A stretch of 64,000 nucleotides of DNA from a virus (IMGVR_UViG_3300045988_028354); one strand, 5' to 3'; numbered from the stretch's first letter, positions 25,935 to 47,825 are shown. Program-made: numbers and translations. The notes: generated by a model not told the origin, from the sequence alone.

Positions 25935-26474
25935 ATGATAGTTAGGAGTTCTATTATCTTATATAAAATTTATAATAATATGGAAGAGAAACTCACATGT
26001 CACTTATGTAATGCACCATTAAATTTGGATGATTACAATTTAACCAGGGTAATACCTCAATTAATGAAAGAAAAATCACTTTGCTTTCAATGTGCTTTTT
26101 GGCATAACATTAAAAACGAAGATGATAAGGTAAAGAAAGATTTTTCGATGGAAATAATCCCATTAATTACTCCGGATTACCGTCATTACACTATCCATTT
26201 TAATTCGCTATGGATAGAAACGGGTACTTTCAGAAGAGAACGTATTAAAACTTCAGAAAAGTATATAGCTATACTCACAGGAGATAACTCCATGATTATT
26301 AACTCATATAATAATTGGGGATTCCAGGGAATAATTCCAGAACACTCTAGAGAACTATTTACTCCAAATGGAATAACACTTACTCCTGTAGAACTTATGG
26401 AACTCTTAAGTCGTGAATCCTTTACCGCAGCAGATTTAAAAATTCTTATTGATAATTGCATTAAATCAGAATAA
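25935..26474 (+). CDS. hypothetical CxxC...CxxC protein
   Basis: 179-aa ORF. An alternative ATG at 25980 gives MEEKLTCHLCNAPL...CFQCAFW. First gene of the only plus-strand cluster. Confidence 0.55.
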   Translation: MIVRSSIILYKIYNNMEEKLTCHLCNAPLNLDDYNLTRVIPQLMKEKSLCFQCAFWHNIKNEDDKVKKDFSMEIIPLITPDYRHYTIHFNSLWIETGTFRRERIKTSEKYIAILTGDNSMIINSYNNWGFQGIIPEHSRELFTPNGITLTPVELMELLSRESFTAADLKILIDNCIKSE

Positions 26475-26487
26475 TTTTGTATATTTG
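26425..26487 (+). promoter_or_regulatory. Bacteroidota-type promoter (plus strand)
   Basis: TATATTTG at 26480..26487, TTGCA 24 nt upstream, CCGCAG ending at 26430 (57 bp from the last G of the -7 box). ATG of the next gene at 26512. Confidence 0.6.
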
Positions 26488-26511
26488 CATAAACATTTTA
26501 ATAATAAAGAT

Positions 26512-26898
26512 ATGAAAAAGAACAAAGAAACCAAAAAGCTAAAGGAGGGTGAAGAAGTCATTTTCTCTGATGGCAAAACCTTAATGGAGAAAGTAATCGT
26601 AGAATCTATCGATAAGAAAGGTGGGTTTGCAGTACTGAGCAATAAGGTAAAAGTATCAAGAACTATCGGACCAGATGGGTTCTATACAAGGTTAGATGGT
26701 AAATCCTCAATGGTATTACCTTTAACCGACAAATCCGAATTGGATTACCAAGCATTCAAATCTTACTTCTCTATTAAGAGAAACCTGGAATTTATCGAAG
26801 CCAAGATAAAAGATATGAAGGACAAAGAGTTCAGTGAACTAATCGTAGAATTAGATAAGAAGATATCCAAAATCGTAACAAAATACTTTGAACAATGA
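26512..26898 (+). CDS. hypothetical protein
   Basis: ATG at 26512 (MKKNKETKK...), 25 nt after the -7 box. The track start at 26449 would overlap the promoter. Confidence 0.6.
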   Translation: MKKNKETKKLKEGEEVIFSDGKTLMEKVIVESIDKKGGFAVLSNKVKVSRTIGPDGFYTRLDGKSSMVLPLTDKSELDYQAFKSYFSIKRNLEFIEAKIKDMKDKEFSELIVELDKKISKIVTKYFEQ

Positions 26899-27107
26899 CA
26901 ACTTGGATAATCTTGGGTATCATATATGCCGTATGCTATATACCTGCATGTTTTATTACTAGAGTAATTACCTCATCACACCCAATGAAAAGGGTGGGGT
27001 TCTTTTTCCTAACAGTCTGGTTAATCATGCCTCTATTTCCGATATATTTACTAATCACATACTTTAAGAACTATGAACAGAGAAATAACAACGAAGAAGG
27101 TAGGTAG
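26895..27107 (+). CDS. small two-TM membrane protein (holin-like topology)
   Basis: 70 aa, two hydrophobic helices and a charged C-terminus. ATGA overlap with the upstream gene. Confidence 0.55.
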   Translation: MTTWIILGIIYAVCYIPACFITRVITSSHPMKRVGFFFLTVWLIMPLFPIYLLITYFKNYEQRNNNEEGR

Positions 27108-27252
27108 GCAAAAGAAGCTTACCAACCCATGCCCAGTAATTAAGGGAGAAGTACAGATAATGGTAGGAAGTCCAAAGTGTATTACCTGCCAATGGTTTGA
27201 AAGAAAATTCGAGAAAGATGGAAGAGCCTACGTTCACTGCAATCGATTATAA
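27073..27252 (+). CDS. possible 59-aa zinc-ribbon-like protein (not in ORF track)
   Basis: Hand-translated MNREITTKKVGRQKKLTNPCPVIKGEVQIMVGSPKCITCQWFERKFEKDGRAYVHCNRL. Fills the 27108..27217 gap but overlaps both neighbours by ~35 nt. Confidence 0.3.
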   Translation: MNREITTKKVGRQKKLTNPCPVIKGEVQIMVGSPKCITCQWFERKFEKDGRAYVHCNRL

Positions 27253-27751
27253 CTCCTTAGAGAATAAGGTAATCGGAGGATTGGTAAGAGACAACTACTC
27301 AAAGATAAAGAATACTTTCTACAAGGTATTCAATAAAAGAGTAAAAAATCCCAATTCACCTGTAGGATTATGTGCTGACCTAATTGAGGCTTCTAATTAT
27401 AAGGATGACCCAGATAGGACTCTTTGGAGAAAGGTAATTAAATCTTGGTTCACTCCACAAAGGTTTAACCTTACCCATGTATACTTTGGATATTCTACTC
27501 CTTTAATCCAACATCTGAAGGAAGAAGTTCTAGATATAAATGGGAGGGTATGGTTCAAGGTACCATTAGAAAAGCTTAAGGACCACGAATACCTTATGGG
27601 AACAGCATTTTGGTTCCCTGTATCTAAAGAATATAATGCTGAACGTATTAAAATACTAGAGTGTGCTCTTGAGGACTTAGAGAGAATTAAAAGGGAGGGA
27701 GAACCAAAGCTCCCTCCTATTACCTTTGAAGAACCTAAAATATACCCATGA
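27218..27751 (+). CDS. hypothetical protein
   Basis: First ATG (MEEPTFTAIDYNS...). The track start at 27197 is TTG. Confidence 0.6.
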   Translation: MEEPTFTAIDYNSLENKVIGGLVRDNYSKIKNTFYKVFNKRVKNPNSPVGLCADLIEASNYKDDPDRTLWRKVIKSWFTPQRFNLTHVYFGYSTPLIQHLKEEVLDINGRVWFKVPLEKLKDHEYLMGTAFWFPVSKEYNAERIKILECALEDLERIKREGEPKLPPITFEEPKIYP

Positions 27752-27960
27752 TGGAAGATTTAGCAAAGCTTACCAAAGAGGAAGAGGAAATCCTTATGCT
27801 TACCGAAGAGATTTGGAATAGGTTTTTGGCATTACCTATCAATCATCCGATGGAGGCAAATGAGATAGCGATGAAGATACATGATATCCAGAGGATGATT
27901 ATATCTAGGCCTGGATTTAGGATGAACCAAGAAATGTTTAGGCAATATGGTAACGGTTGA
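27748..27960 (+). CDS. hypothetical protein
   Basis: 70 aa, ATGA overlap with the upstream gene. Confidence 0.55.
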   Translation: MMEDLAKLTKEEEEILMLTEEIWNRFLALPINHPMEANEIAMKIHDIQRMIISRPGFRMNQEMFRQYGNG

Positions 27961-28213
27961 TACAGTATATGAGGATGAATTTAAGAGAATCCTAAGGTGT
28001 TCTGAGGGTAATAGGGTTTGGTATCAGTTATGGATTACTGATTTGGATATGAATTGTATTGAAAGATACTTTAAAGGTTATAATGAAGTTAAGAGATGGT
28101 GGTTACCTAATCTTCAAATGTGGTATGTTTTCTTTTATCGAAAGAATGGTGGTAAGGTTAAGGGAGTATTAGGTAGGGAAAGGACCAATAACTTATTAGG
28201 TAGTATTCTGTAA
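27947..28213 (+). CDS. hypothetical protein
   Basis: 88 aa, ATG checked, last gene of the plus-strand cluster. Confidence 0.55.
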   Translation: MVTVDTVYEDEFKRILRCSEGNRVWYQLWITDLDMNCIERYFKGYNEVKRWWLPNLQMWYVFFYRKNGGKVKGVLGRERTNNLLGSIL

Positions 28214-28355
28214 TAAGTTGCCAGGGATATTAGGTCTCTGGCTTCTTTGTGTGTGCATGTGTGGTCTAGGTACCCCTTAATACGAGGAGCGATTTTTGTG
28301 TGGTAGTAAATGGGGGGAACGGTTACGTTAAATTTAACATTCAAAAATAAAAAGT

Positions 28356-28383
28356 AAGGGACAAATAAAAATGTTTGTCCCTT
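28356..28383. terminator. bidirectional hairpin terminator at the convergence point
   Basis: Perfect 10-bp stem aagggacaaa / tttgtccctt, 8-nt loop, T-rich runs on both sides. Confidence 0.65.
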
Positions 28384-28389
28384 TCAATT

Positions 28390-28680
28390 TTAAATTAATT
28401 CAATCAAAGTAACACATGTATCTTTGTTTTGCAAAACAAATAATTCGCTACTATCGTCTTTTCTTGAATAGATATTATAATAATCTGATTCAATTATTTT
28501 TTTGTGTCCGTCTTGCAAAAGCATTTTATCTAATGTTTCAAACGTTTCATTTAAACGCTTTTCTGTTTCTTCTTCGTCTTGCAAAGACTCGCTTTGCATA
28601 TCTAAAATAGAAATATTTATCTTTCCGTCACTCTTAGAAATCGAATGATTTAAAAATTTCTTTAATAGTTCTTTGTTCAT
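28390..28680 (-). CDS. hypothetical acidic protein (AT-rich island)
   Basis: 96 aa, ATG checked, very AT-rich codons compared with the rest of the window. Confidence 0.55.
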   Translation of the reverse strand: MNKELLKKFLNHSISKSDGKINISILDMQSESLQDEEETEKRLNETFETLDKMLLQDGHKKIIESDYYNIYSRKDDSSELFVLQNKDTCVTLIELI

Positions 28681-28697
28681 ATCTTTAAAATTTTAAA

Positions 28698-28724
28698 AAA
28701 GGGAAAGATTAAATCTTTCCCTTT
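28698..28724 (-). terminator. hairpin terminator
   Basis: Near-perfect palindrome aaagggaaagatt-a-aatctttcccttt, followed by a U-run on the minus strand. Confidence 0.6.
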
Positions 28725-28732
28725 GCAGTTAG

Positions 28733-29221: not shown

Positions 29222-29378
29222 TTAGTTTTTAAGTTTATTTTATTATATCCTTTTCTCTATAAAACTAAATGATTTATAAGAAAAAGAGAAAAGGAATATT
29301 TAAATTAAATTGTTTCAAAATGTCAAACGATAAAATACTATCAATACAAAAGTAGTTTTTATCTCTCTTTCTGTATTA

Positions 29379-29409
29379 CAAAGATACAACTTATATTTTA
29401 ATCTACAAA
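29379..29409 (-). promoter_or_regulatory. Bacteroidota-type promoter, proximal copy
   Basis: Minus strand TTTTGTAG-N-TATCTTTG (plus caaagata 29379..29386, caaa 29406..29409). Confidence 0.5.
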
Positions 29410-29480
29410 ATTTTTAGAGAATTTTTTCTTTAAAAATAGTTAATCAAAATTTTAAATATCTCTTTGCTTTTTCAACACTA

Positions 29481-29511
29481 CAAAGATAAGAAATATCTTT
29501 GAATCTACAAA
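29481..29511 (-). promoter_or_regulatory. Bacteroidota-type promoter, distal duplicated copy
   Basis: Same arrangement 102 bp upstream (caaagata 29481..29488, caaa 29508..29511), with similar flanks. Confidence 0.5.
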
Positions 29512-29728
29512 ACATTTATAGAAAAATTTTTGAGAAATTTTTAAAGAATTATTTTTAATAATTTTGCATGAAAAATTTGCAAGTAGGTTTTAGGGGTTTG
29601 AATTGGGGGCATGGTTGTGGGTAGGTAATATAGGTATATTGATGGATATAGGGAAGGGGTTGGTATAGGTACCACTTTAGAAAAAAGAAGGCCCCATACA
29701 GTCCGGTAGATATTATCTGTATATTATC

Positions 29729-29902: not shown

Positions 29903-29928
29903 ATAGGGTGTAACATAGTTAGCGATAG

Positions 29929-30735: not shown

Positions 30736-30763
30736 ATCTATATATTTTTAATTGTTTATACTG

Positions 30764-30806
30764 CAAATATAGACATTTTTATTTAAATATGCAAATCCTA
30801 CTGAGG
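30764..30806 (-). promoter_or_regulatory. Bacteroidota-type promoter with CCTCAG box
   Basis: Minus strand CCTCAGTAGGATTTGCATATTTAAATAAAAATGTCTATATTTGCAG; box offset 37. Confidence 0.65.
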
Positions 30807-30902
30807 CCCTTAATGGATAATGTCTTATAGCTCTATAACTTATTAATAATCAAAGAGTTACATAATCCATATCTCTTCTAGCCATTATTAGTTTCTTTCT
30901 AA

Positions 30903-30923
30903 CTAAATATAAGGGCCATTAAT
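30903..30923. repeat. GGCC-core 20-mer, copy B
   Basis: ctaaatataagggccattaat. Confidence 0.6.
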
Positions 30924-31067
30924 AACATACTTACTAGTTTTAGGTACCCCTAACAGCCTACATTTTTAATATAATCCCAATAAATTTGATGGCCATGAAT
31001 GGTATATTTTAATGCCTAATCCCCAAATCCTATTGCCTAATCCTAACTAATTTCTATATAATATATA

Positions 31068-31088
31068 CTAATATAAAGGGCCATTAGG
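31068..31088. repeat. GGCC-core 20-mer, copy C
   Basis: ctaatataaagggccattagg. Confidence 0.6.
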
Positions 31089-31344
31089 AGTCTAGGATTA
31101 AGGGGATTTAGGTACCCATATGGGCCTTAGTTGTGGGCCTTTTAGGCAATGGGTCATAATGACCAAAGGCTATGAGACTGATATGTTAGATAGCTATAGA
31201 GTAGTGGTGTTGTATAGTGATAGGGGGGCTAGGCCTAGAAGTTTGCCTTAATCCCAACACCCCCGGAAGGCCTTCAATATTGTATTAGTTATATGTATAT
31301 TGATTATTATTATATTAGGTATGTGTATTATGTAACATAGTTAG

Positions 31345-31373
31345 GCCCAGTATGATTTTGTTTTATACTGGGC
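31345..31373. terminator. hairpin, strand assignment ambiguous
   Basis: Perfect 9-bp stem gcccagtat / atactgggc. Lies 37 nt after the stop of 31410..31592 on the minus strand, but the U-rich tail (tttagtatttatttt) is on the plus strand. Confidence 0.5.
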
Positions 31374-31409
31374 TTTAGTATTTATTTTGATATTTGTTTT
31401 TGTTTGGGG

Positions 31410-33058: not shown

Positions 33059-33111
33059 CAAATATAAGAATAATATTTTAAATATGCAATAACCCCGATT
33101 ACTTACTGGAG
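33059..33111 (-). promoter_or_regulatory. Bacteroidota-type promoter with CTCCAG box
   Basis: Plus caaatata at 33059..33066, gcaat at 33086..33090, ctggag at 33106..33111; offset 47. Confidence 0.6.
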
Positions 33112-33333
33112 CCTTATAAGGTCAACTATTTCGATGGAAGAGTATGGCATACCTATAAGTTCTGAGATTATCCTTTTAGTATGATATACATGAAGGTGGT
33201 TAGGATTTAGTTTTACCCTTGGGAATATTAAGTATGGCCTTAGTTCCTCAGTTCTATAGGTTATGATTAATTCTTCGCAGAACTTTTCGTTTTGGCAATC
33301 AAAGGATACTAAAAATTTGGACTGTTCTAGCAT
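33103..33333 (-). CDS. hypothetical protein
   Basis: ATG at 33333 (MLEQSKF...). The track start at 33351 is TTG. Confidence 0.55.
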   Translation of the reverse strand: MLEQSKFLVSFDCQNEKFCEELIITYRTEELRPYLIFPRVKLNPNHLHVYHTKRIISELIGMPYSSIEIVDLIRLQ

Positions 33334-34239: not shown

Positions 34240-34282
34240 CAAAGATAAGAATAATAAATAATATATGCAAATATAACTGAGG
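34240..34282 (-). promoter_or_regulatory. Bacteroidota-type promoter with CCTCAG box
   Basis: Minus strand CCTCAGTTATATTTGCATATATTATTTATTATTCTTATCTTTGTAATG; offset 37. Confidence 0.65.
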
Positions 34283-34283
34283 T

Positions 34284-34320
34284 AGAGGCAGGCTCTTAGT
34301 TAGGTTAGAGTCCTGCCTCT
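34284..34320 (-). terminator. strong hairpin at the cassette end (no U-tract)
   Basis: agaggcagg(ctc) / (gag)tcctgcctct, 9 + 3 bp with one bulge. Confidence 0.4.
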
Positions 34321-35348: not shown

Positions 35349-35411
35349 CAAATATAAGCATTTTATTTTAAATATTACTTTATTCATGCAATTATTTTTA
35401 AATAGCTGAGG
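35349..35411 (-). promoter_or_regulatory. promoter with CCTCAG box
   Basis: Plus caaatata at 35349..35356 and ctgagg at 35406..35411; offset 57. Confidence 0.6.
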
Positions 35412-35425: not shown

Positions 35426-35450
35426 AAAGGCAGTTGGTTAGACTGCCTTT
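35426..35450 (-). terminator. intrinsic terminator
   Basis: Perfect 9-bp stem aaaggcagt / actgccttt. Minus-strand RNA is followed by UUUUCUUGUG. Confidence 0.65.
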
Positions 35451-36400: not shown

Positions 36401-36463
36401 CAAATATAAGAAATATATTTATATCTGCAAAAGAATTAATAAACTATTTAATAATTACTGGGG
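36401..36463 (-). promoter_or_regulatory. promoter with CCCCAG box
   Basis: Plus caaatata at 36401..36408, gcaaaa at 36427, ctgggg at 36458..36463; offset 57. Confidence 0.6.
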
Positions 36464-36775
36464 TAGAGCCCGGAATCTGTTTAAGTCCCAATCGTACTTT
36501 CTGTCTCCCTTATTAGTAAATACCCAAAGGTAATGGTCTTTGTATTCCTTTGATATGGTATTATACTTAGAGGTCTGAATGATGATACGATTTGGTTCGT
36601 ATTCAAGTAATTCTGCATGTACTGTAGATACATGATGACTTTCAAGATTAAGTTTGGCCTTGAAGTCTTTAAGGAACTCATCTCGGTTTACACCATAGTT
36701 ATCTCCCACGAATTTAATGTAATCGTCCTCTACCTGTTCTAACATGGTAGATACCTTGAATCTAAACTTGTTCAT
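36455..36775 (-). CDS. hypothetical protein
   Basis: The track start at 36832 is TTG. ATGs lie at 36823, 36775 and 36745; 36775 (MNKFRFKV...) is chosen because it gives a 14-nt overlap. Confidence 0.5.
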   Translation of the reverse strand: MNKFRFKVSTMLEQVEDDYIKFVGDNYGVNRDEFLKDFKAKLNLESHHVSTVHAELLEYEPNRIIIQTSKYNTISKEYKDHYLWVFTNKGDRKYDWDLNRFRALPQ

Positions 36776-37445
36776 CTTTGTTATTTTTAAGGGTTCGTAA
36801 TTTCTCTTTGAGTTCTTCAGCATATCTTTCAAGGATATTACTTACTACTACCAAGCAATCTTCATCTGCAAATGACATAATGATATCCATACATTCATCA
36901 AAGTAGTTTCCGATTGATTGAGGATTATTCCAAAGTACATCCCAGTTCTTGCAATAATTAAACCGGATAATATCTACGTATTCATTTACTGATACCTTAC
37001 TATCTGGTAAATATGGATATACCTTTGAATACATAGATTTAAAATTATCCTCAATCTCCTCATTCAATCTAAACTCTTTTGGTAGAGCCTCATAGTAAGA
37101 CATATCTGGAATGTAGAATTGGTAAGCAAATTCCTTATCTGTCTGTGCCTCAATTCCCGGGTATGAATTAGCAAATAATACTGGTATTTTATAGAGCAAT
37201 AAGTCTGGTACTCTATCATATACCTTGTAATGGTCTTGGTATTCTTTGTACGCATTAACATATACCCGGTCATCGTATATATGAAGTTCATTGAGTATCG
37301 TTTGAACTCTTGAATGAAAGTCTTCTAACTCGAAGTGCATAGCAATGTTAAAGGTATCTTCCATACCCTCTAATTTTTGTAGAGTAATAAGTCTACGGCT
37401 TTTGATTACTCTGATTTTCTTTTTCTTTCTGAATAAGTTGAACAT
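36762..37445 (-). CDS. hypothetical protein
   Basis: 227 aa, ATG checked. Confidence 0.6.
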   Translation of the reverse strand: MFNLFRKKKKIRVIKSRRLITLQKLEGMEDTFNIAMHFELEDFHSRVQTILNELHIYDDRVYVNAYKEYQDHYKVYDRVPDLLLYKIPVLFANSYPGIEAQTDKEFAYQFYIPDMSYYEALPKEFRLNEEIEDNFKSMYSKVYPYLPDSKVSVNEYVDIIRFNYCKNWDVLWNNPQSIGNYFDECMDIIMSFADEDCLVVVSNILERYAEELKEKLRTLKNNKDEQV

Positions 37446-37692: not shown

Positions 37693-37745
37693 CAAATATA
37701 ATACTTTTAAATTTAATATGCAAATCCGTATATACACAACTGAGG
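37693..37745 (-). promoter_or_regulatory. Bacteroidota-type promoter with CCTCAG box
   Basis: Minus strand CCTCAGTTGTGTATATACGGATTTGCATATTAAATTTAAAAGTATTATATTTGCATATC; offset 47. Confidence 0.65.
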
Positions 37746-37766
37746 CCACCATTAATAGGTAGCCTC
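37742..37766 (-). terminator. hairpin at the cassette end (no U-tract)
   Basis: gaggccacc / ggtagcctc, 8 of 9 bp. Its 3-prime arm contains the CCTCAG box. Confidence 0.4.
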
Positions 37767-37770: not shown

Positions 37771-38685
37771 TTATTTTCTTTTGTTTAGGAATGATGCAGC
37801 AAGGGATGTATCTTCTTCTGCTTCTAGTATTTCATCATCCTCTAAGTACCTATCCATCTCTGGGTCATAAGAATCGGTATCAATCCTCATTTCAATCTCC
37901 CTACGCAATTCATGGTGTTCTTTAGAGGATATTTCCATAGCAGCCTTATAGTTATCTGTGATTTGATTGAGTTCTTTCTTATTAAGATTAAGGCCCTCCT
38001 TGGACGTATCTACTCCCTCTTGCTTAGTTGCAACTACTTCTGGCAATGAATTGATATCGTATTTGTCCTCTAAGAGTTTTGCTTCTTCAGTTTTAGTAAG
38101 TACCTTTTGAGATTCTAATACGATAGTTCTTGCTTCCTCTATCGAGATAGTATTCTCAGCATTGAGATTATTCTGTTGATTGAACTGATTGAAGATATTA
38201 GTTGTATTGCCTCCAGTAAGATTACGAATGATTGATTGTAATGATGTAGAAGATTCCAACTTGAGCTTCAATGTCTTATTAACCTCGGACGAAATGAAAG
38301 GAGTATATTTACCTCCTTGGGAATCTCTTAAGATTTGCAACTGGTGAGATATCTCCATTCTATCCTCTAATGCCCATGCTAGTTGTTCTCCCAATAACGC
38401 GTTAAGTAATTCTTCCTGTTTATCTTTATCCCATATTCTAGAAGACAATAATCTGTCTCTCATGAATACTCGTACATATTCTATATCAATCCCCAATCTA
38501 TTAGAGAATGAATTGATATCATAGGTTACTCCACACAAAACACCATTACCCATTAACCATTGATTAATAAGGTAATTCTGTACCTTAATCAATGCTTCCT
38601 CTTCGTGTGTCTTCTGGTATTCTAAAGCCATTGCAGTAGTACCCATAGGACGAGGGAATCTTGTTATCTTATCTTCTTTTGCCAT
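37771..38685 (-). CDS. hypothetical protein
   Basis: 304 aa, ATG checked, acidic C-terminus. Confidence 0.6.
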   Translation of the reverse strand: MAKEDKITRFPRPMGTTAMALEYQKTHEEEALIKVQNYLINQWLMGNGVLCGVTYDINSFSNRLGIDIEYVRVFMRDRLLSSRIWDKDKQEELLNALLGEQLAWALEDRMEISHQLQILRDSQGGKYTPFISSEVNKTLKLKLESSTSLQSIIRNLTGGNTTNIFNQFNQQNNLNAENTISIEEARTIVLESQKVLTKTEEAKLLEDKYDINSLPEVVATKQEGVDTSKEGLNLNKKELNQITDNYKAAMEISSKEHHELRREIEMRIDTDSYDPEMDRYLEDDEILEAEEDTSLAASFLNKRK

Positions 38686-38986
38686 ATAAATAAGCCTTTC
38701 TTATATCTTTAGATTCATCATATCCTACTAGCTCTAACTTATAACATACATAGCAATTAATACTAAGGTTATAGAAATATGCCTTATAGGTTTTCTTTTT
38801 CACTGCCAAATTAAAAGAATCACCAGAGACATAATCCCTGGTGAAAATTAATTTATCACATTTGCCTATCGGAATACTAAGGCAAAGTTTCCAATCCTTG
38901 GCAATAAATTTATTGCCGTGAAGGTCTAGGATTTCCTTTGCCATGACTTCCCTTTTTATAGGTAGATTGTTTTTTGTCTTGTTCAT
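38669..38986 (-). CDS. hypothetical protein (start uncertain)
   Basis: The track start at 39013 is TTG. ATGs at 38986 and 38944. Overlaps the 3-prime end of 38910..39329 by at least 35 nt in the +1 frame. Confidence 0.45.
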   Translation of the reverse strand: MNKTKNNLPIKREVMAKEILDLHGNKFIAKDWKLCLSIPIGKCDKLIFTRDYVSGDSFNLAVKKKTYKAYFYNLSINCYVCYKLELVGYDESKDIRKAYLYGKRR

Positions 38987-40904: not shown

Positions 40905-40967
40905 CAAATATAAGAATAATATTTTATATAGCAATAAAATAAAAAGAATATTTTTAAATAGCTGAGG
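40905..40967 (-). promoter_or_regulatory. promoter with CCTCAG box
   Basis: Plus caaatata at 40905..40912, gcaat at 40931, ctgagg at 40962..40967; offset 57. Confidence 0.6.
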
Positions 40968-41519
40968 TTAATCGGCTAAGAAGTCGAAGATCTCTGGAGC
41001 ATAATCTATCTCGTTTTCTGGGTCTGATAGATATTCGTCCAGGTTTTCGTTATAATAATCGAGTTCTGATTTAGCCTTGGGAGCAGGTACAAAGGGTATA
41101 CATTTTTCTGGATATTTCTCTGCAAACTTAATGGCATCTTGATAAGTTAACTTCTTATCAGTATAAAATTTAACCCATGTATGGGAGTATCCCACTCCTT
41201 TTCTAGTAACTTCGTATTGTTGATATCCAGAATTACTTATCTGGTAGATTTGATTCTCTGGAATGATTTCTATTTCTACCTGATATTCGTATATTCTTTT
41301 TCCGAGTTTGTTTGCCATTTCCTGAATTGAATCCATTAATGACTTAGGCTTATCTGCAAATGAGAAACTGTATTTAGTTTCTGGTACATCGTTCTTTTTA
41401 AACGACGGAGCAGGACTTATCCTGCTTGCATCGGATGTAGGTTTTGAGCCTATAGCCAATCCAATTAGTATAAATCCTGCTAACCCTATGATAGGTAATT
41501 TCTTAAGACCTGAGTTCAT
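40968..41519 (-). CDS. secreted or membrane-anchored hypothetical protein
   Basis: 183 aa, N-terminal LPIIGLAGFILIGLAIG. Confidence 0.6.
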   Translation of the reverse strand: MNSGLKKLPIIGLAGFILIGLAIGSKPTSDASRISPAPSFKKNDVPETKYSFSFADKPKSLMDSIQEMANKLGKRIYEYQVEIEIIPENQIYQISNSGYQQYEVTRKGVGYSHTWVKFYTDKKLTYQDAIKFAEKYPEKCIPFVPAPKAKSELDYYNENLDEYLSDPENEIDYAPEIFDFLAD

Positions 41520-41775: not shown

Positions 41776-42135
41776 TTAAATTATTAATGTGAGTTCAGGA
41801 TGAAATTTATTGGTTTCTCTGTGTAATAGTTCCCATGCTCCGTAAACTCCTTGGGATAAATCATGTATCCATTCGTCTTCCATTTTGAATAGGATATGAG
41901 AACAGATGTATAATTGATATTCGTTCAGAGTCTTTATCAATTGAGGCATTTCGTATATCTCTTCGTAAATCTGAATATGATGATTGACTGAATCAAGCAT
42001 CTCTTCATTGTTTATCTGTAACAACTTCCTGAGTAAATCGGGTTCTGTTGTAGTGATATTGTTTTTGATATTAGTCAATGCCTCAATTTGAATCTGAGCA
42101 ATGTTCTTTACTACCTCTTTGGTTTCTGCATCCAT
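41776..42135 (-). CDS. hypothetical protein
   Basis: 119 aa. Confidence 0.6.
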   Translation of the reverse strand: MDAETKEVVKNIAQIQIEALTNIKNNITTTEPDLLRKLLQINNEEMLDSVNHHIQIYEEIYEMPQLIKTLNEYQLYICSHILFKMEDEWIHDLSQGVYGAWELLHRETNKFHPELTLII

Positions 42136-42158: not shown

Positions 42159-42211
42159 CAAATATAAGAATTTTATTTTATATAATAATACACTTTTAAT
42201 ATAAACTGAGG
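42159..42211 (-). promoter_or_regulatory. promoter with CCTCAG box
   Basis: Plus caaatata at 42159..42166 and ctgagg at 42206..42211; offset 47. The box lies inside the HNH coding sequence. Confidence 0.6.
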
Positions 42212-42690
42212 TAGAGGATCTTTCGTAGGGCAGACCTTGAGAGGTTATACTCTTTTGTTAATTCATTAATAGTTGACCCAAGAGTAAATTTTCTACGTAT
42301 TATTTCTCGGTCTATATTCTTTACTTTAGCTCTAGGATTTTTATCTCCAATGTATCCTCTACCATCTCGTATACATTGCTGAGTATTTTCAGAAGGTGTA
42401 CCCCAATATAGATTACTTACCGAATTATGATGGGGTACATTATCCTTATGACATACATAGGCCTTGTTTTCTGGATTAGGTATATAAACCCTAGCAACTA
42501 ACCTATGTATATAATGTATCTTTCCACGCCTTTGAATAAACTTATATCCTTGTTTAGAAGTATTATATTTAACCCTATGCCAAGAATCTTTAGTAATATG
42601 ACCTGACTTATCATATCTACTCCAAAGTCTTCCTTTCTTACTTATAAAGTATCCTTCTAGAAAGGGTATGTTATCATTTTTGATTATCAT
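42196..42690 (-). CDS. free-standing HNH homing endonuclease
   Basis: YVCHKDNVPHHNSVSNLYWGTPSENTQQCIRDGR plus a C-terminal HTH-like tail. ATG at 42690 (the track start at 42696 is TTG). Paralog of 24419..24943. Confidence 0.8.
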   Translation of the reverse strand: MIIKNDNIPFLEGYFISKKGRLWSRYDKSGHITKDSWHRVKYNTSKQGYKFIQRRGKIHYIHRLVARVYIPNPENKAYVCHKDNVPHHNSVSNLYWGTPSENTQQCIRDGRGYIGDKNPRAKVKNIDREIIRRKFTLGSTINELTKEYNLSRSALRKILYLSLY

Positions 42691-43537
42691 TAGCAAATTT
42701 GATATTCAGTCTCTTAAGAGATTCATAGGCATTAGGAGATAGTAATACATCTGGTGCCCAACGAAGAAAGAATTTTGAGGGTTTCTTTTCTGGATTTGTC
42801 ATCAATTGCCTCATCTCGGCAGAGAATTTTAATCGTTCTTCTTCAAGTTGATATTTGGGGAACTTTGTGAACTCTGCTTGAGAGAAGGATATGGTTTTCT
42901 TACCAACAGAGGCCCTTAACGGTTTCTTCCTTTCTTTATAAAGATACGGAACAATTTTCTTCGATGGTCCACCAAGGATACTAAAGCCGAAGATGACCAT
43001 TGGGTCGAATTTATCTGCCTTGGGGTCTTTGGCTCGTTTGATACATCTTGCCATCCAGGAGTATGAGTTAGGATATTGCTTGTTGTCAGTGGCTTCTCCC
43101 ACATCCTTACTGTTGAATTCGAATCCTGGGAAATGAAAAAGAAAGTCCTCTGTAAGAATAAAGACAAATCCCAATTCCCTTAAATACTTAATAATCTCTT
43201 GTTGGCTCTTACCTTCTTCAACCATTTTCTCTACATCTGCCAGAATATCTTCCCGAGGTGATTCAGTAAGTTGTTTACTACCAGTAGAAGGTCTTCCTCT
43301 TCCCACTGAAGGTTCTTTGATTGGTAAGTTACCTACAAGCTTATCTAAGTAATTCTTAAAGTTCTCTACATCTTGTTTATTTGTAAGAGTTACTTCTATT
43401 CTTATAGGTCCTTTATGTTGTACCTTTGGTCCTGAATTCATTTCGGTATACGCATCCACCAATCTATCTTGAATATAGGAACCATTATCTTCAAGTGTAG
43501 TGATACGTAGTTTGGGTTTATATGTTTTCTCTTCCAT
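42674..43537 (-). CDS. hypothetical protein with AT-hook-like GRGRP
   Basis: ATG at 43537 (MEEKTYKPK...). The track start at 43570 is TTG, inside the terminator hairpin. Contains PSVGRGRPSTG. Confidence 0.6.
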   Translation of the reverse strand: MEEKTYKPKLRITTLEDNGSYIQDRLVDAYTEMNSGPKVQHKGPIRIEVTLTNKQDVENFKNYLDKLVGNLPIKEPSVGRGRPSTGSKQLTESPREDILADVEKMVEEGKSQQEIIKYLRELGFVFILTEDFLFHFPGFEFNSKDVGEATDNKQYPNSYSWMARCIKRAKDPKADKFDPMVIFGFSILGGPSKKIVPYLYKERKKPLRASVGKKTISFSQAEFTKFPKYQLEEERLKFSAEMRQLMTNPEKKPSKFFLRWAPDVLLSPNAYESLKRLNIKFANDNQK

Positions 43538-44809: not shown

Positions 44810-44826
44810 AACGTATAAAATAAATA

Positions 44827-44856
44827 AAGCCTACTACCTTCTCAGGCAATAGGCTT
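44827..44856 (-). terminator. intrinsic terminator
   Basis: 7-bp stem aagccta / taggctt. Minus-strand RNA is followed by UUUAUUUAUUUU. Confidence 0.55.
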
Positions 44857-44922
44857 CCAATAATTTTTGAAATACTAATAAACTATGCAAACCATTAGCG
44901 ATGTTCTCGCTAGGGTAGAAGT

Positions 44923-45306
44923 TTAATCTTCGTCTCCGGCTTCCTCTTCTTCGCCCTTAGCCTTTTTAGCTTTCGGGTTACAGATAATACCGTGTCCTTT
45001 TTTGGATTTTACGGTTAGATTGCCCGGTACGAATGTTACGGATGTAGAAGTTGGTTTACCGTCGATAACCAGAACTGATGTTACCACCACTCCCTGATAT
45101 CCTTCTTTGTTCTTTACTGCGTAACCGTAGTTCTGAACTTCGGATTTATCATTGATTTTGATAACATCAATCTGCTTGCTGTTTGGACGTTGCTCTGCAG
45201 GACGGTTTTTCAAAGCTTCCATACGGGCTTTACGTTTTGCTTCTTTCTCAGCATCTTTTTCTTTGCCACCTTTCTTCTTGGTGTCTTCTTTTTTCTTAGT
45301 TGCCAT
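44923..45306 (-). CDS. protein with lysine-rich N-terminus, beta core and acidic tail
   Basis: 127 aa: MATKKKEDTKKKGGKEK... ...KGEEEEAGDED. Confidence 0.65.
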   Translation of the reverse strand: MATKKKEDTKKKGGKEKDAEKEAKRKARMEALKNRPAEQRPNSKQIDVIKINDKSEVQNYGYAVKNKEGYQGVVVTSVLVIDGKPTSTSVTFVPGNLTVKSKKGHGIICNPKAKKAKGEEEEAGDED

Positions 45307-45359
45307 AATCTTTTAAGTTTTAGTTTTATTTAATAGAACAATAGTTATTTCTTATGATA

Positions 45360-45388
45360 AAGGTGGGCTATTGCTTTAGCCCAACCTT
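45360..45388 (-). terminator. hairpin terminator
   Basis: aggtgggct / agccca(a)cct, 10 bp with one bulge, 18 nt after the stop of 45406..45939. Confidence 0.5.
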
Positions 45389-45405
45389 CATAGCCGGAGA
45401 ATGAA

Positions 45406-45939
45406 TTACTTCTTTCCTTTTTTGCCTTTACCTTTGGTTTCTTTCTTTGCCGGGAGTTTGAGACCCAATTCTTTGGCAATTGCTTTGCGAAGTTTTTCGA
45501 TATCGTCTTCTTCGTAATCGTCCGGGTCTGTTTCGAGGTCTTTGTCATCGCAAACATCTTCCAGTTCTTCGAAGTCCATTTCGGCAAGAGCTTCACCGGT
45601 TAATTCTTCTTCCTCTTCGTCCTCATCTTCCTCTTCGTCCTCATCTTCATCGTCGTCCGAGTCTTCATCATCCTCGTCATCTTCATCTTCTTCATCATCA
45701 TCGTCGTCATCCTCATCGGAATCTTCGTCATCGTCCTCTTCGTCCTCATCTTCCTCTTCGTCGTCATCATCTTCCTCTTCTGAAGCAAAGAAGTCTTTTG
45801 CTTCTTCGGCAGACAACATGATAGGAGCCGGGATAATTTTTACTGAGCCATCCTCGTAAGTAATAATGATTGCACCATTAATCTCTTTGCGAGATACTTC
45901 CTTTAACTCTACCTTTTTGGTTTCTTTTTTCTTAGCCAT
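45406..45939 (-). CDS. polyacidic protein
   Basis: 177 aa. Basic ends (MAKKKETKK..., ...KKETKGKGKKGKK) flank an uninterrupted ~60-residue D/E tract, part of a longer acidic central region. Confidence 0.7.
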   Translation of the reverse strand: MAKKKETKKVELKEVSRKEINGAIIITYEDGSVKIIPAPIMLSAEEAKDFFASEEEDDDDEEEDEDEEDDDEDSDEDDDDDDEEDEDDEDDEDSDDDEDEDEEEDEDEEEEELTGEALAEMDFEELEDVCDDKDLETDPDDYEEDDIEKLRKAIAKELGLKLPAKKETKGKGKKGKK

Positions 45940-45977
45940 TTTCGTAAATGTTTAAATGTTAATAATCAATAGTTATA

Positions 45978-46217
45978 TCACTCTGTTATAAGTTTCTTGT
46001 ATTTTCTTTCGCTTCCCGTAAGATAAGCAAATGCAATATTATATTGTTTTACCTCATCAATTACGGTCTTTAGTTCTTCTTGAGATTCTATCTTTACATC
46101 TTCTGTATCGATAATTTCATCTTGGTCATTATAGGTATTAACCTTAAAGGATTTACCCATGAACGGATTTAATTGTTTATGTACCTTTACTTCCGGTACT
46201 GGGTTTTTAGTTTCCAT
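45978..46217 (-). CDS. hypothetical protein
   Basis: 79 aa. Confidence 0.55.
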   Translation of the reverse strand: METKNPVPEVKVHKQLNPFMGKSFKVNTYNDQDEIIDTEDVKIESQEELKTVIDEVKQYNIAFAYLTGSERKYKKLITE

Positions 46218-46842
46218 TGCTGTATTTAATTTTAATTATTCCAGGAATACCAACCTTACCAAATACTTCGGTATAGAATTTGTATTTTGGATTTTGCATT
46301 GATTTATAGTTATCAGCTAATCTCATGGGAAATACCCAATATTCATTTTCTAGCATCCTGTTTGTCATAATGTAGGCATATTTACTTCTCATCCTATATT
46401 TGCTTACAGGAGTGAATCCCTGAAATCTTAAAGCTTTTACTAAGAACCTTTCTTTTGGTTGCCATCCCAAATGATTTAAAGATTCATCATAAAAGATATC
46501 AAGCATATCCCTTTGTGCTTTGATAAATAGTACTTTCTGTATCGGGATATCTAATTTCTTTCTTAGATACAAGGCCAAGGAACATACCAATGGAGGATAT
46601 TGCAAAGAAAAAATATTATATTTATTCTTTTCCTCTTGACTCAGCCTGTTGTAAATCCTGTAAGATAGCAGAATGGATTTGTATTCTCTTCTTCCGGATA
46701 TACTTGGAAGATATACCTTCCCGTTGTCCATACAATTTTTGTGAGTATCTTTCATTGAATACCTTCTTTCCTTTTGATTTAAAAACCCGGTGCATTTGAA
46801 CCATGAACCTTCGTCTTCTGTGTTTATCAATTTTATATTCAT
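46207..46842 (-). CDS. hypothetical protein (5-prime part overlaps the upstream ORF out of frame)
   Basis: 211-aa ORF with ATG. Its first 73 codons overlap 46622..47185 in the +1 frame. Confidence 0.45.
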   Translation of the reverse strand: MNIKLINTEDEGSWFKCTGFLNQKERRYSMKDTHKNCMDNGKVYLPSISGRREYKSILLSYRIYNRLSQEEKNKYNIFSLQYPPLVCSLALYLRKKLDIPIQKVLFIKAQRDMLDIFYDESLNHLGWQPKERFLVKALRFQGFTPVSKYRMRSKYAYIMTNRMLENEYWVFPMRLADNYKSMQNPKYKFYTEVFGKVGIPGIIKIKYSNGN

Positions 46843-47185
46843 CCGGGATAATAAACTTCCTGGCTTTTACTAATCTCCCTTTATACCAGAATTTAGTAGA
46901 ACCAGATTTATGTCTTAGACCATTCATATCTTGAAGTGTTCTTATCCCTTGCCTAAGTAATTTCCTGCCTGATATGATATGAATATATTGAAGAACATCT
47001 ACTCCGTATATATAAACCAAAGTCTTTTTTATTTGATACCTTGTGAAATAAGGTATACCGGTTAAGTGTTTCCGATATAAACTTTTTTCGGTAATATATT
47101 TATTGGTTGTATCTGGTCTCCATGTCCATATATAATATCTATCTTCTCGGATTGGTTCCCTACTACTTTCCTTTAGCTTTACCAT
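46622..47185 (-). CDS. hypothetical basic protein (3-prime part overlaps the downstream ORF)
   Basis: 187-aa ORF with ATG. Confidence 0.45.
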   Translation of the reverse strand: MVKLKESSREPIREDRYYIWTWRPDTTNKYITEKSLYRKHLTGIPYFTRYQIKKTLVYIYGVDVLQYIHIISGRKLLRQGIRTLQDMNGLRHKSGSTKFWYKGRLVKARKFIIPDEYKIDKHRRRRFMVQMHRVFKSKGKKVFNERYSQKLYGQREGISSKYIRKKRIQIHSAILQDLQQAESRGKE

Positions 47186-47741
47186 TGTTCATAGTCCTCC
47201 TTGCAGTTCTAAACCAAAGTGTTATTGATTTATCGTTTGCATCTGGGAACTTCTTTTTCATCCTTCTAGTTACTCTTTCTAAATCGTAACCCTTTGCAAC
47301 CAATGACCATACATAGGATTTCTTAGTTCCCTTGATGAGATTAAATTCATCCCTTTCTCTTGGTGGTTTCTTTTCTCTGGGCTTTTTTATTCCTGGAACC
47401 CTTTTTGATTTCCTTTGCCCATTTTCTCCTTCTTCTCCGAGAAACCCAAGCCTTAATTTCGAATTCCTTAGAGGGTCATCTTTTGAATAACCTATGTTCT
47501 CCAATTGTTTATCCATCCAATCATCATATTGGTCAATCAATGATTTGTCTGGTTTATTAGTTGACCTTTCGATATAACCAATTAAATCGAAAACTCCAGC
47601 AGCACATGCATCAGGGAAAGGCATACCCAATACTATGGCTTTTCTTTTTAAATCCCTGTAAGTCATATTTCTCCCGGCTGAACCAAGGAAACTGGCTTTT
47701 TCTTTTGAGGGTACTGGTTTATTCTTTTTGTTCTTTCTCAT
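47163..47741 (-). CDS. hypothetical basic protein
   Basis: ATG at 47741 (MRKNKKNK...), 22 nt after the -7 box. The track start at 47765 is TTG inside the box. Confidence 0.6.
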   Translation of the reverse strand: MRKNKKNKPVPSKEKASFLGSAGRNMTYRDLKRKAIVLGMPFPDACAAGVFDLIGYIERSTNKPDKSLIDQYDDWMDKQLENIGYSKDDPLRNSKLRLGFLGEEGENGQRKSKRVPGIKKPREKKPPRERDEFNLIKGTKKSYVWSLVAKGYDLERVTRRMKKKFPDANDKSITLWFRTARRTMNNGKAKGK

Positions 47742-47762
47742 ATCTTTTATTTTAATTTGTTG

Positions 47763-47825
47763 CAAATATAATACTTTTTATTTATATAGAAAAATATTTT
47801 TATCTATTTTTATAAAAAGCTGAGG
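47763..47825 (-). promoter_or_regulatory. promoter with CCTCAG box
   Basis: Plus caaatata at 47763..47770 and ctgagg at 47820..47825; offset 57. The box lies inside the 3-prime end of 47800..48789. Confidence 0.6.

What the first reader, a model, noticed from the sequence alone, without database searches (positions are those of the whole stretch)
26425..47825. Promoter family with an upstream CCTCAG box placed exactly 37, 47 or 57 bp from the -7 box
Seen in sequence: nine minus-strand promoters carry the Bacteroidota -7 element TAnnTTTG. Their plus-strand CAAAKATA starts are at 30764, 33059, 34240, 35349, 36401, 37693, 40905, 42159 and 47763.

Each has a plus-strand CTGAGG upstream, with variants CTGGGG and CTGGAG. 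These start at 30801, 33106, 34277, 35406, 36458, 37740, 40962, 42206 and 47820. The offsets are 37, 47, 37, 57, 57, 47, 57, 47 and 57 bp.

The single plus-strand promoter (TATATTTG at 26480..26487) has CCGCAG ending at 26430, again 57 bp away.

Steps of 10 bp keep the box on one face of the helix. The box is conserved whether it falls in a spacer, in a hairpin arm (37742..37766) or inside coding sequence (42206, 36458, 47820). Three copies extend to CTCTACCYCAG. Promoters with the far box often lack a -33 TTG.

Inference: the box is the binding site of a transcription activator or appropriator (compare the T4 MotA box) that controls a temporal class of about ten cassettes.
Basis: partly seen in the sequence, partly recalled or inferred. 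Interest (0 to 1): 0.7.

Follow-up and report, generated by a model that had tools for sequence, protein, structure and literature searches.

The report
Phased upstream box on phage promoters
Almost every strong promoter in the roughly 20 kb "unknown genes" region of this abundant gut Bacteroidales phage carries a short CCTCAG box one, two or three helical turns upstream of the -33 position, always on the same DNA face; this marks an undescribed control element whose reader is not yet known.

Summary
All coordinates check. One trivial overlap is the only exception. That gives 7 pairs, against 0.007 expected from shuffles.

The box follows promoter orientation, including two opposite-strand promoters. 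It has no fixed relation to upstream stop codons or hairpins. It is less polymorphic than its flanks.

It persists at 55-57 (less often 44-46 or 35) in relatives whose marker protein is only 52-68% identical and whose spacers cannot be aligned. One clade has CCAAG at 55 and 44 instead. One genus has no box.

The box is also the 5' edge of a promoter module at which gene cassettes, including an HNH endonuclease gene, are swapped.

Best reading: a docking site for a sequence-specific protein acting on host RNA polymerase from one helix face, in the manner of a class I activator site. It is not MotA-like. Whether it activates or represses, when it acts, and what reads it are all unknown.

The parts
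47763..47825 (-). Promoter module: box CCTCAG 47820-47825, -7 TATATTTG 47763-47770, d=55, no -33 TTG. The box lies inside the 3' end of ORF 47800-48789.
   Evidence: The slot is conserved in relatives with CCTCAG, CCTCGG (a synonymous change), CCACAG, CCTGAG or CCAAG.
42159..42211 (-). Promoter module: box CCTCAG 42206-42211 (context CTCTACCTCAG), -7 42159-42166, d=45, no -33 TTG. The box lies inside the 3' end of the HNH ORF.
40905..40967 (-). Promoter module: box CCTCAG 40962-40967, directly after the TAA stop of ORF 40968-41519; -7 40905-40912; d=55; -33 TTGCT.
37693..37745 (-). Promoter module: box CCTCAG 37740-37745, -7 37693-37700, d=45, -33 TTTGCA.
37742..37766 (-). Hairpin GAGGCTACC/GGTGGCCTC, whose 3' arm contains CCTC of the box.
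   Evidence: -17.4 kcal/mol
36401..36463 (-). Promoter module: box variant CCCCAG 36458-36463 (the last two codons of ORF 36455-36823), -7 36401-36408, d=55, -33 TTTTGCA.
   Evidence: Relatives have CCTCAG here (12 contexts, against 5 with CCCCAG).
35349..35411 (-). Promoter module: box CCTCAG 35406-35411, -7 35349-35356, d=55. TTGCA is displaced about 10 bp upstream of the usual -33 position.
35426..35450 (-). Terminator-like hairpin followed by TTTTCTT, ending 14 nt upstream of the box.
34240..34282 (-). Promoter module: box CCTCAG 34277-34282, -7 TATCTTTG 34240-34247, d=35, -33 TTTGCA 5 nt after the box.
34285..34319 (-). Hairpin GAGGCAGG...CCTGCCTC, ending 2 nt upstream of the box. Its arms covary in relatives (AAGGGTAGG/CCTACCCTT).
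   Evidence: -21.3 kcal/mol
33059..33111 (-). Promoter module with the weakest box: CTCCAG 33106-33111 (the last two codons of ORF 33103-33333), -7 33059-33066, d=45, -33 TTGCA.
   Evidence: Relatives have CTTCAG at 45, or a different module with CCTCAG at 56.
30764..30806 (-). Promoter module: box CCTCAG 30801-30806, -7 30764-30771, d=35, -33 TTTGCA. It follows a 670-bp non-coding repeat region.
   Evidence: The same slot has d=55 or 56 in relatives, through an insertion of 20-21 bp.
26425..26487 (+). Plus-strand promoter module: box variant CCGCAG 26425-26430 inside ORF 25935-26474, -7 TATATTTG 26480-26487, d=55.
   Evidence: CCTCAG sits at the same position in a second allele group and in L263.
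42196..42690 (-). HNH_3 endonuclease gene, a presence/absence cassette whose downstream junction lies 1-6 nt upstream of the box.
   Evidence: absent from 32 of 44 related loci
47800..48789 (-). Conserved 329-aa protein with a predicted N-terminal sigma-region-4-like HTH.

Best explanation
The box has the consensus R-CCYCAG-Y, read on the transcribed-gene strand. It is the upstream-most conserved element of a promoter module about 45-65 bp long, counted from the box to the -7 element. These modules drive the transcription units of the roughly 20 kb locus of unknown genes in a Flandersviridae-like phage of Bacteroidales.

Taking the T of TAnnTTTG as -12, the box occupies about -47 to -42, -57 to -52 or -67 to -62 (sometimes -68 to -63). 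These positions are successive turns on one face of the helix.

The most likely mechanism is inferred, not shown. A sequence-specific protein, probably binding as a monomer because the site is a single asymmetric hexamer, docks on the box. From that face it touches host sigma-A RNA polymerase bound at -33/-7, as class I activators do. Where the -33 TTG is missing, this contact may help the polymerase bind. The same geometry would equally suit a repressor or a shut-off factor.

A second property is shown by comparison: the modules act as homologous linkers at which neighbouring gene cassettes are exchanged between phage strains.
For: 1. Strict association in the window: 7 exact pairs at 35/45/55 and none elsewhere, against 0.007 expected.

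2. Ten of the 12 intergenic strong promoters in the window carry the box or a close variant. The only further strong promoter found in about 17 kb of the genome outside the window is on the opposite strand and has CCTCAG at 56. The plus-strand promoter at 26480 has CCGCAG or CCTCAG at 55. Orientation therefore follows the promoter, not the genome strand.

3. In 88 non-redundant promoter contexts from 80 relatives, exact boxes lie at 35 (8), 45 (11), 55 (14), 56 (7), 44, 61 and 67 (1 each), and nowhere else between 20 and 100. One slot changes from 35 to 55/56 through an insertion of 20-21 bp.

4. The box columns carry fewer polymorphisms (1.3 per column) than the flanks (4.1 upstream, 2.75 downstream). 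Only T3 to C recurs.

5. Deep conservation despite unalignable spacers. L302 (marker 68% identical) has CCTCAG at 55 in 3 of 3 promoters. L305, L306, L281 and L280 have CCNYAG at 55-57, 44-46 or 35. The pooled histogram for non-window clades peaks at 55 with 11 cases.

6. A clade-specific substitute sits at the same place. L299 (49% identical) has CCAAG at 55 in 5 of 8 promoters and at 44/43 in 4 of 8.

7. There is no fixed relation to anything else. The upstream stop codon lies anywhere from 18 nt after the box to 62 nt before it. Only 3 of 9 boxes have an adjacent hairpin.

8. Far-box modules often lack a -33 TTG (13 of 25), while near-box modules never do (0 of 8).

9. Bacteroidota promoter geometry: the -7 element runs from T-12 to G-5, and AT-rich motifs recur at successive helical turns (PMC6847099).
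Against: No reader protein has been identified. About 60 window ORFs scanned against Pfam, ten of them also against PHROGs, gave no transcription-factor domain.

The one predicted HTH protein, the product of 47800-48789, has an invariant recognition helix in clades whose box differs or is absent.

The nearest sister clade (L072-L080, 75% identical) shows decay: CCTCGG through a synonymous change, CCTCCG at 44, CCTTAG, CCCGAG, and exact boxes at 61 and 67. Constraint is therefore not absolute.

The 10-bp ladder rests on few independent spacer families: 2 at 35 and 2 at 45, against 13 at 55/56. In-register recombination between modules could preserve the spacing without selection.

No transcription start sites or expression data were available.
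Confidence: 0.55

Rival explanations
1. Host RNA polymerase reads the box directly, through the alpha C-terminal domain or another holoenzyme surface, with no extra factor. On this view it is a GC-containing counterpart of an UP-element subsite that works at whole helical turns.
For: The positions (-44.5, -54.5, -64.5) and one-turn steps fit what is known of alpha-CTD reach (established knowledge from E. coli). All box promoters have a near-consensus host-type -7 element. No phage factor was found.
Against: Known UP subsites are A/T-rich and are read through the minor groove, whereas this is a specific C/G-containing hexamer. The box sequence differs between phage clades (CCTCAG, CCAAG, ACCAGCTCT, none) while the -7 element stays the same. 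Box-less promoters with the same -7/-33 exist in the same genome (29379 and 29481).
Confidence: 0.15
2. The box has no role in transcription. It is simply the conserved edge of a promoter/terminator linker that is kept uniform by in-register recombination and gene conversion between modules, as with PeSL cassettes.
For: Identical modules that begin at the box follow unrelated upstream genes. Two slots in L070 carry nearly identical modules starting at CCTCAG. The HNH indel ends 1-6 nt before the box. Replaced segments end at the modules.
Against: The hexamer and its distance survive in clades whose spacers are no longer alignable, so homogenisation cannot explain them. Box columns are less polymorphic than the adjacent module columns. 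One clade has a different pentamer at the same distance.
Confidence: 0.12
3. The signal acts in RNA. CCUCAG in read-through or 3'-terminal transcripts of the upstream unit marks a termination, processing or stability site.
For: The box always lies near the end of the upstream unit. In 3 of 9 cases it adjoins or overlaps a stable hairpin, one of which shows covariation.
Against: The distance to the upstream stop codon and to the hairpins varies, and 6 of 9 boxes have no hairpin. The distance to the downstream -7 box is exact, which an RNA 3'-end signal would not need. One box follows 670 bp of non-coding DNA.
Confidence: 0.08
4. The box is a target for DNA modification or nicking, for example by the phage C5 cytosine methylase or by a strand-specific nickase. 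Any effect on promoters would be secondary.
For: A C5 methylase gene lies at 23412-24416. Three boxes extend to CCTCAGC, which I recall from memory as the BbvCI recognition site.
Against: The overall count of CCTCAG is at the level expected from composition on both strands, with neither avoidance nor general enrichment. Nothing links the methylase to this sequence. This reading offers no reason for phasing with the -7 box.
Confidence: 0.05

Closest known systems
Class I activator sites (the CRP paradigm at -61.5, -71.5, -82.5 and so on)
   Same: The site lies upstream of the core promoter. It is functional only at whole helical turns, so it is found at steps of 10-11 bp. The far class being 55 or 56 fits 10.5 bp per turn. 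It can compensate for a weak upstream core element.
   Different: The site is a single asymmetric hexamer rather than a palindrome about 22 bp long for a dimer. The nearest position (-44.5) abuts the -33 element. The polymerase is the Bacteroidota sigma-A type. No protein has been identified, and the sign of regulation is unknown.
T4 MotA box / sigma appropriation (middle promoters)
   Same: It is a short, asymmetric, phage-specific box upstream of a host-type downstream element. It is probably read by a monomer. It defines a family of promoters in a lytic phage that has no RNA polymerase of its own.
   Different: The MotA box is centred at -30, replaces the -35 element and sits at a fixed 11-13 bp from the -10 element. 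Here the box is 10-30 bp further upstream, at three phased positions, and -33 is often kept. No MotA or AsiA homologue was detected.
PeSL (promoter-early stem-loop) cassettes of T4-type phages (PMC2839356, PMC4122927)
   Same: They are conserved promoter-containing linkers between small ORFan cassettes in a plastic genome region. Insertions, deletions and replacements between close relatives end at the linkers. Some linkers carry terminator hairpins.
   Different: Only 3 of 9 modules have a stem-loop. The distinctive conserved feature is a phased upstream hexamer, which PeSLs are not reported to have. Mini-circles were not testable. Half of the locus (37.8-48.8 kb) consists of conserved genes and is not hyperplastic.
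UP element (alpha-CTD subsites at about -42 and -52)
   Same: It covers the same promoter coordinates and tolerates displacement by a whole turn.
   Different: UP subsites are A/T tracts, whereas this is CCYCAG embedded in A/T-rich DNA. It also varies between phage clades.

Membership tests
Bacteroidota sigma-A (sigma-ABfr) promoter | -7 element TAnnTTTG (TAHHTTTG), running from T-12 to G-5 | tested here: met
   All ten modules have TATATTTG or TATCTTTG followed by C/T-A, behind at least 80% A+T. The definition comes from PMC6847099.
Bacteroidota sigma-A (sigma-ABfr) promoter | -33 element TTTG | tested here: inconclusive
   TTTGCA, TTGCA or TTGCT is present at the right distance in 6 of the 10 modules. 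It is displaced in one (35349), absent in two (42159 and 47763) and unclear in 26480.
Bacteroidota sigma-A (sigma-ABfr) promoter | Transcription starts about 5-7 nt downstream of the -7 element | not testable with these tools
   No RNA data are available. The only support is that start codons lie 15-47 nt downstream.
T4 MotA-dependent middle promoter | Box centred at about -30 that replaces the -35 element, at a fixed 11-13 bp from the -10 element | tested here: not met
   The box lies 35, 45 or 55 bp upstream of the start of the -7 element, and -33 is retained in most modules.
T4 MotA-dependent middle promoter | MotA and AsiA proteins encoded by the phage | tested here: not met
   About 60 window ORFs gave no such Pfam hit. 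About 5 kb of the genome was never inspected.
Class I activator site | Sites occur only at whole helical turns from the core promoter | tested here: met
   Distances are 35, 45 and 55/56 in the window clade. They are 55-57, 44-46 and 35 in other clades. CCAAG lies at 55 and 44 in L299. The number of independent near-class families is small.
Class I activator site | Bound by an activator that contacts alpha-CTD | not testable with these tools
   No protein has been identified.
UP element | A/T-rich sequence between -40 and -60, read by alpha-CTD | tested here: not met
   The conserved core is CCYCAG, which has 4-5 G/C out of 6.
PeSL cassette | Strong early host-type promoter within a conserved intergenic cassette | tested here: met
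   Consensus-level match only.
PeSL cassette | Stem-loop terminator forming part of each cassette | tested here: not met
   Hairpins are present at only 3 of 9 minus-strand modules.
PeSL cassette | Indels and replacements between close relatives are bounded by the cassettes | tested here: met
   The HNH indel ends 1-6 nt before the box. Segments 36380-35370/35410, 30790/30730-29930 and 33050-32800 end at modules.
Candidate family 'Flandersviridae' (genomic context) | Genome of about 85 kb; structural block with BACON-domain proteins; PolA replication module followed by a locus of about 20 kb of unknown ORFs | tested here: met
   Related contigs are 85-88 kb. BACON and S74 tail fibres, PolA, RecA and SbcC are present. 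The description comes from PMC8008677. TerL/PolA phylogeny was not done.

The most novel reading that the evidence does not exclude
The box is the operator of a phage-encoded DNA-binding protein that has not yet been recognised. This protein would recruit or block Bacteroidota sigma-A RNA polymerase from one helical face, and it could stand in for the -33 element. Its specificity would have co-evolved with the box across clades (CCTCAG, CCNYAG, CCAAG, other). That would make it a new class of transcription control governing the 'dark' 20 kb locus of one of the commonest human gut phage families.
Probability: 0.3. Interest if true: 0.7.

Novelty: new variant of a known kind. Interest (0 to 1): 0.55.

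Why it matters
Flandersviridae-like phages are reported to be about as widespread in human guts as crAss-like phages (PMC8008677). Their 20 kb post-replication locus has had no annotation at all. This element divides that locus into about ten transcription units and gives each a recognisable promoter. It also predicts a specific regulator that could be isolated with a 6-bp bait.

It offers a rare, directly testable case of helical-phase-dependent promoter control for the unusual Bacteroidota sigma-A polymerase, for which almost no activator geometry is known. The compact modules, with and without the box and at three spacings, could serve as parts for Bacteroides engineering. The module-bounded cassette exchange also explains how these phages shuffle accessory genes.

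Tried and rejected
- tRNA and Rfam scans of the window found nothing.
- A megablast of 12 kb against INPHARED phages gave no match.
It served only as a rough background, which was flat apart from 55.
- PHROGs and Pfam scans found no transcription-factor domain.
- PDB sequence searches with three candidate proteins, and with the N-terminal profile of the 329-aa protein, found nothing.
- A Pfam scan of 36 homologues of the 329-aa protein gave no sigma or HTH family.
- The 287-aa product of 42674-43537 was chosen because homologues were detected only in box-bearing clades. Its AlphaFold model had mean pLDDT 71.5 and gave no meaningful fold match.
- The genome-contig search returned only phage contigs mis-binned into unrelated MAGs, so it gave no host information.
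- A-tract phasing in the spacers was only weakly periodic and is not used as evidence.
- A Rayleigh test was not period-specific, because most families sit at 55/56.
- I considered a Chi-like site, a nick site, an anti-SD mimic, and a second promoter with the box as its -35 element. I rejected them because of the copy number, the orientation following the promoter, and the exact distance to the -7 box.
- Literature searches for the motif, and for upstream elements of Bacteroides phage promoters, found nothing relevant.

Full report
**Context**

The window is most of the roughly 87 kb genome of an uncultivated phage. Nearly all genes are on the minus strand.
- The structural block includes tail fibres with BACON and S74-chaperone domains, at 3832-14092.
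- The replication block includes PolA, RecA, gp32-like, SbcCD-like and 5'-3' exonuclease genes, at 48.8-64 kb.
- Between them lies a locus of about 20 kb made of small ORFs with no recognisable domains.

INPHARED holds no close relative, but IMG/VR holds hundreds: 359 relatives of one marker protein, on contigs of 85-88 kb. Size, gene order and the 'approximately 20 kb long locus' of unknown ORFs after the replication module all match the published description of the candidate family Flandersviridae. Those phages infect Bacteroides and Parabacteroides (PMC8008677). I did not run the TerL/PolA phylogeny that would prove membership.

**Checking the observation**

I measure distance d on the promoter strand, from the first C of CCTCAG to the T of TAnnTTTG.

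The minus strand holds 13 CCTCAG and 39 TAnnTTTG. All pairs within 150 bp are at 35, 35, 45, 45, 55, 55 and 55. One more is at 7, where the -33 region of promoter 34240 itself reads TATATTTG. The plus strand gives no pairs. Two thousand shuffles within 500-bp blocks gave on average 0.007 pairs at 35/45/55 and never more than one. The six remaining minus-strand copies are scattered in coding sequence without promoters, about the number base composition predicts. The box is therefore not generally enriched. It is specifically tied to promoters.

Three further promoters carry variants at the right distance:
- CCCCAG at 36458.
- CTCCAG at 33106.
- CCGCAG at 26425, on the plus strand.

A scan for TAHHTTTG behind A+T-rich DNA finds 12 convincing intergenic promoters in the window. 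Ten have the box. The two without it (29379 and 29481) form a visibly different tandem pair with their own upstream motif.

**The box belongs to the promoter, not to its surroundings**

The upstream stop codon lies anywhere from 18 nt after the box to 62 nt before it. Where the box falls in coding sequence, it does so in different reading frames. One box follows 670 bp of non-coding DNA. Only three boxes adjoin a hairpin: 34285-34319, 35426-35450, and 37742-37766, whose 3' arm contains part of the box.

Orientation follows the promoter:
- The plus-strand promoter at 26480 has the hexamer at d=55 on the plus strand. Among relatives the hexamer is CCGCAG in one allele group and CCTCAG in another, inside a coding region whose protein sequence differs there.
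- I fetched the parts of the genome missing from the window from an 87,237-bp contig that encodes identical proteins. About 17 of the missing 22 kb held only one additional strong promoter. It is on the opposite strand and has CCTCAG at d=56.

**Close relatives**

From the window plus 80 related loci I extracted 436 distinct promoter contexts and reduced them to 88 non-redundant ones. Exact boxes lie at 35 (8), 45 (11), 55 (14), 56 (7), 44 (1), 61 (1) and 67 (1), and nowhere else between 20 and 100.

The same genomic slot can change class. The promoter at 30764 has d=35 in the window, but 55 or 56 in other strains through an insertion of 20-21 bp.

Within clusters of orthologous modules, the six box columns carry 1.3 minor alleles per column. 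The upstream flank carries 4.1 and the rest of the module 2.75. The only recurrent change is T3 to C, so the consensus is CCYCAG, flanked by R on the 5' side and Y on the 3' side.

**Distant relatives**

I reached other clades through homologues of the 329-aa and 304-aa proteins. Identity of the 304-aa marker to the window is 75% (L072), 68% (L302), 60% (L280), 58% (L282), 52% (L281), 49% (L299), 48% (L284) and 41% (L287).

| Clade | Box status |
|---|---|
| L302 | CCTCAG at exactly 55 in all three promoters; spacers unrelated to the window's |
| L280, L281, L306 | Box at 55-57 |
| L305 | Degenerate CCNYAG (CCACAG, CCTCAG, CCTTAG, CCATAG, CCGTAG) at 55 or 44 in 7 of 10 promoters |
| L299 | No CCTCAG; CCAAG at 55 in 5 of 8 promoters and at 44 or 43 in 4 of 8, sometimes both on one promoter, 11 bp apart |
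| L284 | ACCAGCTCT at 50 and 40 |
| L307 | Its own boxes, abutting the -33 element |
| L287 genus | No box; plain -33/-7 promoters |
| L072-L080 (nearest sister clade) | Partial decay: a synonymous CCTCGG inside coding sequence, CCTCCG at 44, and exact boxes at 61 and 67 |

Pooling all non-window clades, CCNYAG peaks at 55 (11 cases), then 56-57 (4), 44-46 (4) and 35 (2), over a thin background.

In L299, CCAAG is common on that strand (50 copies in 20.9 kb). Even so, I estimate about 0.02 hits expected at d=55, so the excess survives correction for choosing the pentamer after the fact.

The overall picture is a position-specific element conserved well beyond alignable sequence, with lineage-specific changes in sequence and some lineage-specific loss.

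**How solid is the 10-bp ladder?**

I clustered spacers so that no two families exceed 62% identity. That leaves 20 families: 13 at 55/56, two at 45, two at 35, and single outliers at 47, 61 and 79.

The dominant fact is therefore a fixed site at 55-56. The other two rungs are supported by four independent families in the CCTCAG clades, by the 44-bp sites in L305 and L299, and by the conversion from 35 to 55/56 at one slot.

Of the seven families not at 55/56, four fall exactly on 35 or 45. I estimate the probability of this as below 1e-3 if positions were free. The mix of 55 and 56 in the far class is what a helical repeat of 10.5 bp predicts. I regard phasing as well supported but resting on modest numbers. 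In-register recombination among modules may also help to preserve it.

**Geometry**

In Bacteroidota promoters the -7 element spans T-12 to G-5, and AT-rich motifs recur at successive helical turns upstream (PMC6847099). The box therefore occupies about -47 to -42, -57 to -52 or -67 to -62.
- In the near class it ends 5 nt before TTTGCA.
- In the far classes the -33 TTG is frequently missing: 13 of 25 non-redundant modules, against 0 of 8 in the near class.

This is the geometry of class I activator sites or of alpha-CTD contacts. It is not the geometry of the T4 MotA box, which sits at -30 at a fixed distance and replaces the -35 element.

**Module behaviour**

Identical promoter modules beginning at (CTCTA)CCTCAG follow unrelated upstream genes in different strains. 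In L070, two different slots carry nearly identical modules that begin exactly at the box.

The HNH_3 endonuclease gene 42196-42690 is absent from 32 of 44 related loci, and homology resumes 1-6 nt upstream of the box. Several replaced segments end at modules: 36380-35370/35410, 30790/30730-29930 and 33050-32800.

This resembles the PeSL cassettes of T4-type phages (PMC2839356 and PMC4122927). There are two differences. Only a minority of modules have a stem-loop. The upstream half of the locus (37.8-48.8 kb) consists of genes conserved across all clades, many of them basic, whereas 28-37.7 kb is truly hyperplastic.

No window ORF hits a transcription-factor family. It is a family-wide conserved protein with 848 homologues and no annotation.

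An AlphaFold model built on 36 homologues has mean pLDDT 81.6. In a PDB fold search, a stretch of about 51-69 aligned columns matches sigma-factor region 4, the -35-binding HTH, in many entries. Foldseek probability reaches 0.99, target TM is 0.6-0.79 and rmsd is 1.5-2.5 A, but E-values exceed 0.9 because the domain is short. I place the match at the N-terminus from the model's four leading helices, the sequence pattern and the hhalign register.

Sequence methods do not confirm the match. The protein is therefore a plausible DNA binder. However, its predicted recognition helix (SHYKYLE...) is invariant in every clade, including those with CCAAG, ACCAGCTCT, other boxes or no box.

A second candidate, the 287-aa product of 42674-43537, was chosen because homologues were detected only in box-bearing clades. 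It gave no fold match.

**Conclusion**

The interpretation as a protein-binding site that acts on RNA polymerase from one face of the helix is the best available reading, at about 55%. It remains an inference. The sign of regulation, its timing and the factor are unknown, and the MotA analogy does not fit the geometry.

The rivals, with my estimated probabilities:
- Direct recognition by the polymerase (about 15%).
- A functionless linker edge maintained by recombination (about 12%).
- An RNA-level signal (about 8%).
- A modification or nicking target (about 5%).

I found no description of this element in the searchable literature. I classify it as a new variant of a known kind of element, namely a phased upstream promoter site within a recombining promoter cassette.

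Noticed in passing
window 30736-31409: About 670 bp with no ORF of 35 aa or more on the gene strand. It holds short repeats: TAATGGCCCTTATATTTAGT-like three times, GGATTAGGCA twice, and GGTACC-containing 21-mers. It also has a terminator-like hairpin at 31343-31375. There is no tRNA and no Rfam hit. Similar GGCC-rich repeats precede the equivalent promoter in distant clades. It may be an origin or iteron region, or a non-coding RNA.
   Followed up: partly
window 29340-29560: A tandem pair of box-less promoters at 29379 and 29481. Each has TATCTTTG, a -33 'TTTTGTAGATT' and an upstream AAATTTCTCWAAAAATTTT. The pair is about 100 bp apart and is conserved in several other clades (L072, L074, L071). 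It represents a second promoter class, probably regulated differently.
   Followed up: partly
window 47800-48789: A family-wide conserved 329-aa protein whose N-terminal residues (about 60) are predicted to fold like sigma-factor region 4, the -35-binding HTH. Its 'SHYKYLE' recognition helix is invariant in all clades. It may be a polymerase-associated or DNA-binding regulator in its own right.
   Followed up: partly
window 42196-42690 and 24323-24943: Two HNH_3 endonuclease ORFs, both just below Pfam's curated cut-off (21.6 and 21.4 bits against 24.8). The first is a presence/absence cassette inserted immediately upstream of a box promoter, and other HNH genes occupy the same slot in other clades (L301 and L303). 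The second is on the plus strand inside the minus-strand structural block.
   Followed up: partly
window 23412-24416: A phage-encoded C5 cytosine DNA methyltransferase. Its target sequence is unknown.
   Followed up: no
window 23171-23411: A 241-bp intergenic region rich in TATATA-type palindromic repeats, just downstream of the methylase gene 23412-24416 and upstream of the remaining structural genes. It could be a late promoter or a packaging-related site.
   Followed up: no
window 28000-48800: The 'unknown' locus has two parts. Genes at 37.8-48.8 kb are conserved across all clades and many are basic (pI 9-10.5). The region 28-37.7 kb consists of strain-variable ORFans, many of them small and acidic. 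The products of 42674-43537, 46622-47185, 38669-38986 and 41776-42135 have detectable homologues only in box-bearing clades.
   Followed up: partly
L299 13977 and 16583 (related genome): In the CCAAG clade, some promoters carry two direct CCAAG copies 11-12 bp apart (d=55 with 44 or 43). This is reminiscent of direct-repeat sites for tandemly bound winged-helix regulators.
   Followed up: no
L308-L313 (genome contigs): Contigs of this phage family are binned into MAGs labelled Collinsella, Romboutsia, Dysosmobacter, Clostridium, Mycoplasma and Spirochaetaceae. These are almost certainly binning artefacts and should not be read as hosts.
   Followed up: no
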